A stretch of DNA of 63,132 nt, counting the filler, from Sluysia triapertura (lineage: Eukaryota), in NCBI GenBank assembly GCA_046118255.1. It is 5 parts of 5 records of this genome, joined end to end, with 100 filler letters (N's around TTAATTAATTAA, not from the genome) between each part and the next. Parts side by side here need not be neighbours in the genome. Positions count along the whole stretch, not along the records: positions 39,502 to 52,193 come from JBJNIA010089903.1; 4 more parts are not named here. One strand, 5' to 3'. The notes below the pieces were generated by a model. That model was not told the DNA's origin and searched no databases. It saw only the letters and a list, made by a program, of their open reading frames with translations. This document shows, piece by piece, positions 42,815-44,162 of the stretch (positions are counted from its first letter, which is position 1; each line of letters starts with the position of its first letter). Both the position numbers and the translations under genes were made by a program.

Positions 42815-43920
42815 ATGTCACCTACGAAATTTTATTTCAACACGACACAACAAAATCACTCTTCAGAACATTTCATAATTCTTAAGACTTTCAAACATTC
42901 TAAACATAAAAGTTTATTGCATCAAGATCACACTCAACATCGAAATTCATCAAAAATTAATTCAAAGCATTTTCAATTTAATTTAACATATAGCACATAA
43001 AACCACATTCCATAACATTTTACCATTTTTTTCATCAAAACCATTAAAACTTCAAACATCGCACAACATTTCGAATCTACAATTTGTCAGCAACAAAACC
43101 ATTCAGTACATCAAAAATCATTAAATCCGTAATCCAAAATTACCTTAAAACATCATTATAATTAAAACAGAGTTGTTGTATTATCATCTTTAGTTAAGTA
43201 TTACGCCTTTTTTATAAACATCTTGTACTCATTTCTTTTAATACCTTAACTAACTTGTTACTTTTTCAAAAAATTATCAAAATCTTTTTCATATTTTATT
43301 TCTTTCTTTCTACCTCAAAACACTTTAAAGTCAACATCCAAACCATCAATCTACATTTTATTCATTATCTAATAACATTAAAAGCACAATTACATCTTAA
43401 ACCATCGAACACACATCCTAAAGGCAATCCAAAACACTTCAAGTTCGCAATTCTTTAACATTTAATCAAGTTCATTGCGAAAACATTACATTCACGCTTC
43501 AAAACCATTTTAACATTCAATCAAAACCGAACTTCTTTTAATATATGTAACTGCTTGTTACTATCCTTGCACTTCTTCTTAGGCTTTTAAAAGACATTCA
43601 AACATAATTAAAAGAATACTAGCTAAAGGATTTTATTAATTATGTCAAGAAACAAGATAAGATACAAGAAAGATCATGTAGAGACAAAAATAAAAAAGAT
43701 TTATGTTTTGACTTAATTCTATTATTATTATCATCTCTGTTTTATTATAATAATTATTTTTAACTGTAACCATCTTTATTATCATTATTATTATTCTTTA
43801 TTATCATTTGCCGTTACCATTTTTACTCGGTAACAAAATTTCATGTCATTATCTGTCATCAGTAGACAGCTTAATTAAAGCAATTTAACATATTGTGCTT
43901 ACTGCCTACTGATGACATAC
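42815..43920 (+). repeat. C/A-rich dispersed repeat, homologous to 62100-62840
   Basis: AATCCAAAACA.TTCAA.TTC.CAAT.CTT.AACATT.AATCA and AAAACCATT blocks shared at about 43425-43520 and 62330-62430; shared downstream hairpin. Confidence 0.7.
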
Positions 43921-44162
43921 ACTGACTGAGTCTTTTCATTCATATCACAATTTGAGTGTTACAAACTGACCAATAGACGTTCTCTTAAATTAACCGTTTA
44001 ACAACTCACAATACTTAACGTCTATCGGTCAGCCAACCACAGAATAATCTTAATCAATTTTACAGATACTAGTTGAAATTATTTTTGTCTGTAACCTGAT
44101 TAGACGTCCAATTAACTCTAACTATACACACACTACCTCTCTTAATATTGGACGTCCAATCA
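43854..44162. repeat. Array of three stem-loops (16-bp stems, 32-35-nt loops)
   Basis: 43854-43869/43902-43917, 43966-43981/44017-44032, 44097-44112/44147-44162, each 15/16 complementary. Confidence 0.85.

What the first reader, a model, noticed from the sequence alone, without database searches (positions are those of the whole stretch)
43854..44162. Regular array of three 16-bp-stem hairpins with 32-35-nt loops upstream of an orphan ORF
Seen: three inverted-repeat pairs of equal geometry (64-67 bp, starts about 110-130 bp apart) with different stem sequences sharing a TAGAC core. They stand out against the AT background and end about 110 bp before ORF 44273. Smaller hairpins are interspersed (about 43813-43834, 44060-44094). 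Constant geometry with divergent sequence suggests selection on structure: RNA packaging/processing signal, small-RNA precursor cluster, replication origin or paired protein-binding sites.
Basis: partly seen in the sequence, partly recalled or inferred. Interest (0 to 1): 0.7.

Follow-up and report, generated by a model that had tools for sequence, protein, structure and literature searches.

The report
Hairpin cluster in gene-carrying repeat
Three real, related hairpins sit inside a many-copy repeat of an AT-rich animal genome, just ahead of what is likely a broken copy of a host trafficking gene; they most likely fold as microRNA-like precursors read from the opposite strand, but no RNA data could test this.

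Summary
The hairpins are real: 16-17-bp stems, loops of 32-35 nt, spans of 66-68 nt; shuffles give 0-1. They are likely diverged duplicates of one unit, with a fourth relative at 62771-62837. They lie at the inner end of a multicopy, G-poor leader. Across other copies, stems vary less than loops (4 of 98 vs 19 of 101 sites). Arms match their own partner at 88-94% but arms of neighbouring hairpins at about 45-65%, so pairing itself is kept. The 'orphan' ORF is probably a frameshifted copy of host TRAPPC4 (E 9e-4). Best reading (0.38): minus-strand, microRNA-like precursor cluster carried by the repeat. Against it: no extra basal pairing in 3 of 4 hairpins, no shared seed, no RNA data. Rivals: promoter of inverted site pairs (0.27), single-stranded DNA mobility signals (0.22), unselected relic (0.10). 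Tiny MITEs are not supported. The TAGAC core is only partly shared. The scan noted similar leader-hairpin-cargo blocks in other windows of this genome. New variant of a known kind; interest 0.5.

The parts
42827..43600 (+). G-poor leader of a multicopy repeat (G 5.6%, C 21%), a loose array of the word AACAT, with a sharp left boundary in other copies
   Evidence: 53 contigs have loose ends at 42827 and 96 contigs differ at 42886
43720..43812 (.). (TAT)n-like AT-rich stretch between leader and hairpins, also present in the second copy
   Evidence: sequence; alignment
43813..43834 (.). Small inverted pair GTTACC / GGTAAC; resembles RFX half-sites (recalled motif, not tested)
   Evidence: related words in loose-end consensus of other copies (table 7)
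43853..43918 (-). Hairpin H1 (17-bp core, loop 32), the most widely shared unit; strand is the predicted RNA strand
   Evidence: 22 contigs at 43851, 16 at 43881
43966..44032 (-). Hairpin H2 (16-bp core, loop 35), likely a diverged paralog of H1
   Evidence: best non-training hit of the H1/H4 covariance model, E 0.024
44060..44094 (.). Small inverted pair (7-9 bp)
   Evidence: not tested against chance
44096..44163 (-). Hairpin H3 (16-17-bp core, loop 34); each arm is itself a 14-bp palindrome (exact in the right arm, one mismatch in the left) with CCAAT/ATTGG ends
   Evidence: (D5, I17); second non-training hit of the model, E 0.08
44273..44818 (+). 181-codon ORF. Residues 9-72 (44297-44488) resemble the PDZ-like part of TRAPPC4; the likeness continues in the next frame after the A-run at 44495 (to about 44540)
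   Evidence: E 0.011; E 9.4e-4 with X at the break; 13 contigs lack one base at 44495 (table 4)
62096..62460 (+). Second, diverged copy of the G-poor leader; it begins with GTGGCCAAC, the word seen in the loose-end consensus of other copies
   Evidence: (score 101 vs null max 41), 15 table 7
62771..62837 (-). Hairpin H4, homolog of H1 in the second copy (19-bp core, loop 29, span 67)

Best explanation
The three hairpins are likely tandem duplicates of one 66-68-nt unit inside a multicopy repeat, and they most likely work as folded RNA read from the minus strand, as a cluster of microRNA-like precursors that would be transcribed away from the downstream gene. Shown: the stems; the multicopy context; lower variation in stems than loops; arm-to-arm identity that outlasts identity between hairpins. 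Inferred: common ancestry of H1-H3; leftward transcription from a promoter near 44163-44273 or inside the ORF; folding; cutting by Drosha and Dicer; a roughly 22-nt guide made of the left arm plus the conserved TTAA segment next to it. On this reading, duplication and drift would have given each hairpin a different guide. Whether the repeat moves together with the TRAPPC4-like sequence is inferred from this one locus.
For: [quoted passage not shown] The best ungapped 22/22 duplex pairs 18-19 of 20 positions on the minus strand and 16-18 on the plus strand. Of the 40 listed variants (of 87), 4 of 98 stem sites and 19 of 101 loop sites vary, Fisher p 0.0015; 3 of the 4 stem variants restore Watson-Crick pairing. 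Five of 7 non-Watson-Crick core positions in H1-H4 are G.U on the minus strand, 1 on plus, 1 on neither. The 4 stem or stem-edge mismatches where other copies restore the pair are all minus-strand G.U; the local background of this change type is 6 of 16, p about 0.02, post hoc. No listed loop variant lies in the first 8 nt beside the left arm in any of the three hairpins (0 vs 4.5 expected; p 0.003-0.03 for widths 5-10, post hoc), while the right side varies up to 1-2 nt from the arm in H1 and H3. That side would hold the seed of a minus-strand 3p product. Fast-diverging multicopy miRNA clusters are known in Tribolium (PMC4691753, passages).
Against: Flanks and loops pair no better than shuffled ones on either strand (combined p 0.11-0.88); only H1 has a significant lower stem (p 0.017 minus, 0.033 plus), and the H3 minus loop pairs worse than 99% of shuffles. 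Canonical hairpins have 30-35-bp stems with a basal stem of about 10 bp. The better minus-strand energy is therefore compositional. No seed is shared among the four hairpins in the best registers, including the homologs H1 and H4. Core stems are Watson-Crick-perfect in other copies, which suits DNA symmetry or copying better than RNA (inference). The G-to-A and T-to-C changes behind the wobble polarity would also follow from the strand bias of this repeat. H1, H3 and H4 arms are internally palindromic, which suits protein sites on duplex DNA. No Rfam family matches. H2 and H3 have no counterpart in the second copy. Homology of H2 and H3 to H1 is only weakly supported (E 0.024 and 0.08; loop p 0.027 and 0.29).
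Confidence: 0.38

Rival explanations
1. The block is a promoter for the downstream gene. Each hairpin is an inverted pair of protein sites about 50 bp apart on duplex DNA, with CCAAT boxes and RFX-like words between them. Arms would be kept identical by occasional template switching, not by selection on folding.
For: It lies 110-420 nt upstream of the ORF start. The window copy has 4 CCAAT/ATTGG words in 43970-44160, and 2 more appear with the alleles of other copies, against 2.06 per kb in the window. H3 arms are 14-bp palindromes; H1 arms read CTGTC-N7-GACAG (exact in the left arm). Flanks and loops show no extra pairing. Precedents: MITE-derived m1m2 pairs act as germline promoters in C. 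elegans (PMC9757741, section 5 part 1); CCAAT boxes are enriched in some planarian promoters (PMC10558129, passages); CENP-B binds hairpin-prone promoters with inverted CCAAT boxes (bioRxiv 10.64898/2026.04.10.717743, section 6). Template switching creates and maintains stems (bioRxiv 10.1101/2021.04.15.439925, passages).
Against: Three likely paralogous units each keep their own near-perfect symmetry while differing from each other at about 35-55% of arm positions; independent binding sites need not do that. Symmetry multiplies the CCAAT count, which is about two independent words. In the cited rRNA study template switching was enriched at 4-nt loops, not 33-nt ones. The wobble polarity and one-sided loop conservation are unexplained.
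Confidence: 0.27
2. The hairpins fold in single-stranded DNA and are recognition, termination or origin signals of a non-autonomous rolling-circle or long-armed DNA element (HINE/DINE-1-like) that captures downstream host sequence. Successive hairpins would be old or repeated signals.
For: Other copies share a sharp left boundary (53 contigs) with a near-palindromic GGTGGCCAACC word. The second copy has GTGGCCAAC at 62096, TTGGCCAAC at 63006, an 8-bp palindrome at 63053-63060 and a T-run at 63065-63069, loosely like HINE anatomy (PMC4067079, passages). Watson-Crick-perfect cores that tolerate G.T on one strand fit folded DNA. Loops are G-poor like the leader (4 G, 30 C) while other module DNA is not (69 G, 88 C; p 3.6e-4), as expected if unpaired minus-strand bases were deaminated.
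Against: HINE 3' palindromes are 5-10 bp and terminal; these are 16-19-bp stems with 29-35-nt loops about 1 kb inside. No right end or inverted arm was found for the first copy. No transposase partner or empty site could be examined. The G-poor loops may simply descend from the G-less AACAT word of the leader.
Confidence: 0.22
3. The hairpins are unselected relics: short inverted copies made and repaired by replication template switching in a decaying repeat.
For: The ORF downstream is frameshifted relative to TRAPPC4, this copy carries private mismatches in all three stems, and the second copy lacks H2 and H3.
Against: Stem sites vary about five times less than loop sites across copies, and the span stays within 66-68 nt in four diverged units. 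Repair from the partner arm alone would not slow divergence between copies (inference).
Confidence: 0.1
4. Each hairpin is an independent tiny MITE whose arms are its terminal repeats.
For: The spans are similar, and H1, H2 and H3 differ in arm sequence.
Against: No target-site duplication flanks any of the three (sequence). H1 recurs in the same leader context at 62771. A contig of another copy spans H1 and H2 in the same order (43835-44063, table 8). All four share orientation and loop words.
Confidence: 0.03

Closest known systems
Lineage-specific multicopy microRNA clusters (Tribolium mir-3851 / mir-3836; PMC4691753, passages)
   Same: Rows of short hairpins in many dispersed copies, differing in number and sequence, grown by duplication and divergence.
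   Different: Those have small-RNA reads and shared seed families. Here there are no reads, no shared seed, weak basal stems, and the cluster sits between a G-poor leader and a host-derived broken gene.
CERP2/CELE2 MITE-derived m1m2 promoters bound by HIM-17 (PMC9757741, abstract and section 5 part 1)
   Same: Inverted motif pairs spread by a repeat and placed upstream of genes.
   Different: m1m2 is one motif pair lying in MITE terminal repeats. Here three different symmetric pairs sit about 1 kb inside a longer repeat, and no binding or promoter activity is shown.
HINE / DINE-1 non-autonomous Helentrons (PMC4067079, passages)
   Same: Non-coding multicopy element with a palindromic word near one end, internal repeats, a microsatellite-like stretch and hairpins.
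   Different: HINE stems are short and terminal; no right end, empty site or autonomous partner was found for the first copy.
Multicopy Pack-TIRs such as Ssk-FB4 (PMC8277862, abstract and section 9)
   Same: A long repetitive arm next to a host-derived coding sequence that is itself multicopy.
   Different: Ssk-FB4 has two inverted arms and target-site duplications; no second arm was found here, and the link of other cargo copies to the hairpin block is not shown.

Membership tests
Animal microRNA gene (MirGeneDB criteria, PMC12539619) | At least 16 paired nucleotides between the arms | tested here: met
   18-19 of 20 on minus, 16-18 of 20 on plus, best of 9 registers
Animal microRNA gene (MirGeneDB criteria, PMC12539619) | Reads from both arms, uniform 5' ends, 2-nt offsets | not testable with these tools
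   no RNA holder listed
Animal microRNA gene (canonical hairpin, PMC12553114) | 30-35-bp stem including a basal stem of about 10 bp | tested here: inconclusive
   flank pairing beyond shuffles only in H1 (p 0.017 on minus); H2, H3, H4 p 0.22-0.86; combined p 0.11
Known Rfam family | Match at the gathering score | tested here: not met
   0 matches in the window; best by E-value 2.6
CERP2/CELE2-type MITE promoter | One recurring motif pair inside MITE terminal inverted repeats | tested here: not met
   three different pairs, about 1 kb from the repeat boundary
CERP2/CELE2-type MITE promoter | Promoter activity and factor binding that need the motifs | not testable with these tools
   needs ATAC, CAGE, ChIP or a reporter
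HINE / DINE-1 (HLE2) | 12-15-bp subterminal inverted repeats near both ends | tested here: inconclusive
   second copy has GGCCAAC words at 62098 and 63008, only 9-11 nt; first copy lacks the left word
HINE / DINE-1 (HLE2) | Short 3' palindrome, T-rich insertion site, empty sites, autonomous partner | not testable with these tools
   an 8-bp palindrome and T5 lie at 63053-63069, common in AT-rich DNA; no genome held
Pack-TIR / Pack-MULE | Inverted arms on both sides with a target-site duplication | tested here: not met
   no inverted copy of the leader in the window; the one score above null is AT-only sequence
Pack-TIR / Pack-MULE | Multicopy host-derived coding fragment inside | tested here: inconclusive
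   TRAPPC4 likeness E 9.4e-4; ORF region multicopy (42 contigs at 44593); linkage of those copies to the leader not shown
LTR element | Direct terminal repeats around the internal region | tested here: not met
   no direct similarity above null between upstream, leader and downstream stretches
MITE (each hairpin) | Target-site duplication and independent insertion | tested here: not met
   none by inspection; fixed order and context

The most novel reading that the evidence does not exclude
An undescribed mobile element of this animal carries its own expanding cluster of small-RNA precursors, each with a different guide, read away from a captured host gene that it amplifies and keeps translatable even after a frameshift. 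That would be one selfish unit that spreads both new microRNAs and scrambled host genes.
Probability: 0.18. Interest if true: 0.8.

Novelty: new variant of a known kind. Interest (0 to 1): 0.5.

Why it matters
If the hairpins are processed, one repeat family would be seeding many related copies of new microRNA-like genes, next to captured host gene copies, in one animal lineage. That would make the birth of microRNA clusters from mobile DNA directly testable with one small-RNA library. If they are promoter sites or DNA signals, they mark the control block of an undescribed gene-carrying repeat. Nine literature searches (listings only, except for the papers named as read) returned no description of this element; the library lacks most subscription papers, and no supplements were read.

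Tried and rejected
No whole genome is held, so far ends, empty sites and full copies could not be examined. No RNA holder was listed; the single run may be the window's own source, so its contigs show paralogs or alleles, not independent species, and summed depth is not copy number. Rfam: nothing at gathering score; two chance-level matches. Arm-pair patterns found nothing in metagenome or viral contigs. Protein searches of the 181-aa ORF found no significant relative. Pfam gave Zwilch at E 5e-4, below its cut-off and spanning the frameshift, and the Atlas gave ubiquitin-like folds at 0.88 or less; both were set aside as weak. The single-sequence fold was unusable (pLDDT 35), so no fold search was run. 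The second frame alone hit nothing, and Pfam did not recognise the read-through protein; further likeness of that frame to the TRAPPC4 C-terminal half is recalled, not shown. A possible exon at 45107-45358 matched nothing; one search used the wrong frame. Reading the leader's minus strand as a gene was dropped: stops in all frames. Hammerhead ribozyme, H/ACA snoRNA and Y/sbRNA were considered by eye and dropped (no Rfam match, required motifs not seen). An unanchored four-way alignment gave no consensus fold because the arms have slid. The sigma-70 scan is irrelevant to an animal and was at chance. Baculovirus homologous regions were seen only as a search listing. Look-ups of earlier findings by sequence and by nearby place were blank. 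The taxon 'flatworm' comes from earlier notes and was not tested; my calls show only an AT-rich animal genome (PR-domain, kringle, pogo-type hits).

Full report
Observation. A GC-weighted scan of the whole window for stems with loops of 15-50 nt found four at the highest threshold: these three and one at 62771-62837, called H4 here. Eight block shuffles gave 0 in seven and 1 in one. The region folds far better than shuffles on both strands (z -6.8 plus, -7.9 minus). No Rfam family matches. The shared TAGAC core is only partly real: its offset differs among hairpins, and in H3 all 8 other contigs carry G at 44102.

Setting. The window is AT-rich animal DNA with PR-domain, zinc-finger, kringle, pogo-type and Gypsy-like sequences. 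No genome is held. One public run holds the stretch and may be the window's own source. Laid on 41500-46500, 3336 of its contigs fit, nearly all from 42830 rightwards; 53 contigs have loose ends at 42827. From there to about 43600 the plus strand has 5.6% G and 21% C. This leader and its second copy together hold the word AACAT 24 times against 5 expected. The second, diverged copy of the leader starts at 62096 and leads to H4, which is homologous to H1. So the array is part of a dispersed repeat: leader, AT-rich stretch, hairpins. I found no inverted second arm and no direct terminal repeat for the first copy.

The downstream ORF. Large protein searches found no significant relative. Against solved structures, residues 9-72 matched the PDZ-like part of TRAPPC4 weakly (E 0.052; 0.011 for the N-terminal 76 residues). 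Thirteen contigs lack one base in the A-run at 44495. Read with X at that place, the match extends collinearly to residue 89 and improves from 16.8 to 22.7 bits against chain 2j3t_D (E 9.4e-4; one of 8 such searches). The second frame alone hit nothing and Pfam did not recognise the read-through protein, so this is probable, not certain. The ORF region is multicopy (42 contigs at 44593), but depth is lowest at the junction with the hairpins (44172-44338). That other ORF copies sit behind hairpins is therefore not shown.

What is conserved. Measured from the outer CTG, the spans are 66, 67, 68 and 67 nt. Arms are 15/17, 15/16, 15/16 and 17/19 identical to their partner, but 6-10 of 12-16 between H1/H4, H2 and H3. 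A covariance model built from H1 and H4 ranks H2 (E 0.024) and H3 (E 0.08) first among 13 non-training hits in the window. H1/H2 loops are alike at p 0.027 and H1/H3 loops are not (p 0.29). Common ancestry is thus likely for H2 and weaker for H3. H1 and H4 differ by an A-T to C-G change on both arms. On 43800-44210, 108 contigs were laid and 40 of 87 variants were listed. Of these, 4 of 98 stem sites and 19 of 101 loop sites vary (p 0.0015), and 3 of the 4 stem variants restore perfect pairing. The list is ranked by support and contigs end at variants, so this is a biased sample. Pairing, or a process that copies one arm onto the other, is the conserved property.

Which strand and what for. 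Five of 7 non-Watson-Crick core positions are G.U if the minus strand is folded. The four mismatches that other copies restore are all of that type, against a local background of 6 of 16 (p about 0.02, post hoc). Listed loop variants avoid the first 8 nt beside the left arm in all three hairpins (0 vs 4.5 expected; p 0.003-0.03 by width, post hoc), but reach the right arm closely in H1 and H3. Both hints fit a minus-strand 3p product whose seed lies in the conserved TTAA segment. The duplex criterion of at least 16 pairs (PMC12539619, passages) is met, on both strands. Results against this reading: flanks and loops add no pairing beyond shuffles except the lower stem of H1, whereas canonical precursors have 30-35-bp stems (PMC12553114, passages). 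No seed is shared, even between H1 and H4. Cores are Watson-Crick-perfect in other copies, and arms are internally palindromic. Expression could not be examined. I put this reading at 0.38.

Rivals. A promoter of inverted site pairs (0.27) fits the position, the CCAAT words and the palindromic arms. It has precedents in C. elegans m1m2 promoters (PMC9757741, section 5 part 1) and CENP-B-bound CCAAT hairpin promoters (bioRxiv 10.64898/2026.04.10.717743, section 6). It needs template switching (bioRxiv 10.1101/2021.04.15.439925, passages) to explain three separate symmetries. Signals folded in single-stranded DNA (0.22) fit the sharp boundary, the loosely HINE-like ends of the second copy (PMC4067079, passages) and the G-poor loops (4 G, 30 C against 69 G, 88 C elsewhere in the modules). 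The stems are, however, long-looped and internal. An unselected relic (0.10) does not explain the low stem variation. Independent MITEs (0.03) lack target duplications and fixed context argues against them. RFX, NF-Y and Tc1 labels are recalled motifs and come from no call.

Relation to earlier scan notes. Sixty notes exist for this genome. Several describe leader, hairpin and cargo blocks on other DNA and split among the same readings. They gave me the cassette wording and four papers; they are not evidence. Tested here and new for this locus are the variant pattern across copies, the negative test for extended stems, the loop composition and the TRAPPC4 origin of the ORF.

Verdict. The feature is real and non-random: a cluster of symmetric units in a multicopy repeat beside a probable decayed host gene copy. 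It works most like a lineage-specific multicopy microRNA cluster, but membership is untested on the defining read criteria and doubtful on the basal stem. It is a new variant of a known kind; interest 0.5.

Noticed in passing
window 44495-44818: After the likely frameshift the ORF's own frame stays open for 107 codons (chance about 3e-5 at this composition; roughly 0.1 expected somewhere in the window by my estimate), while the TRAPPC4-like frame stops after 43 codons. The shifted frame may be the one now kept.
   Followed up: partly
window 62090-63069: The second copy may be a complete cargo-less unit: GTGGCCAAC at 62096, TTGGCCAAC at 63006, 8-bp palindrome at 63053-63060, T-run at 63065-63069.
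   Followed up: partly
window 43877-44128: Two contigs join the start of the H1 loop directly to the H3 region (skips of 250 and 209 nt, table 5), so other copies may carry fewer or exchanged hairpin units.
   Followed up: no
window 43024-43275: Several contigs skip about 250 nt of the leader here (table 5): leader length varies within the family.
   Followed up: no
window 3858-10411: Decayed inverted arms (3858-4029 / 10242-10411, 81%; 4306-4432 / 9812-9940, 82%) enclose broken Gypsy-like pol frames, preceded by a fragment matching a Monjiviricetes fusion glycoprotein (5567-5872, E 7.5e-7).
   Followed up: no
window 20303-20829 and 30079-30582: A 527-bp inverted pair at 74% identity encloses about 9 kb: a possible long-armed element.
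   Followed up: no
window 14809-14895 and 33351-33443: A short repeat with a Tc1-like end (label recalled) shares the word GTGGCCAA with the leader boundary of the hairpin-bearing family.
   Followed up: partly
window 3056-3132: An 18-bp inverted repeat with a 41-nt loop whose arms do not match the H1-H4 arm profile or model.
   Followed up: partly
window 14247-19663: PR-domain exon and C2H2 zinc-finger exon that look like a PRDM8-type gene (name recalled).
   Followed up: no
window 44885-44937: A weak hit of the hairpin model (E 0.16) lies at the place where 6 contigs have loose ends (44887); may be chance.
   Followed up: no
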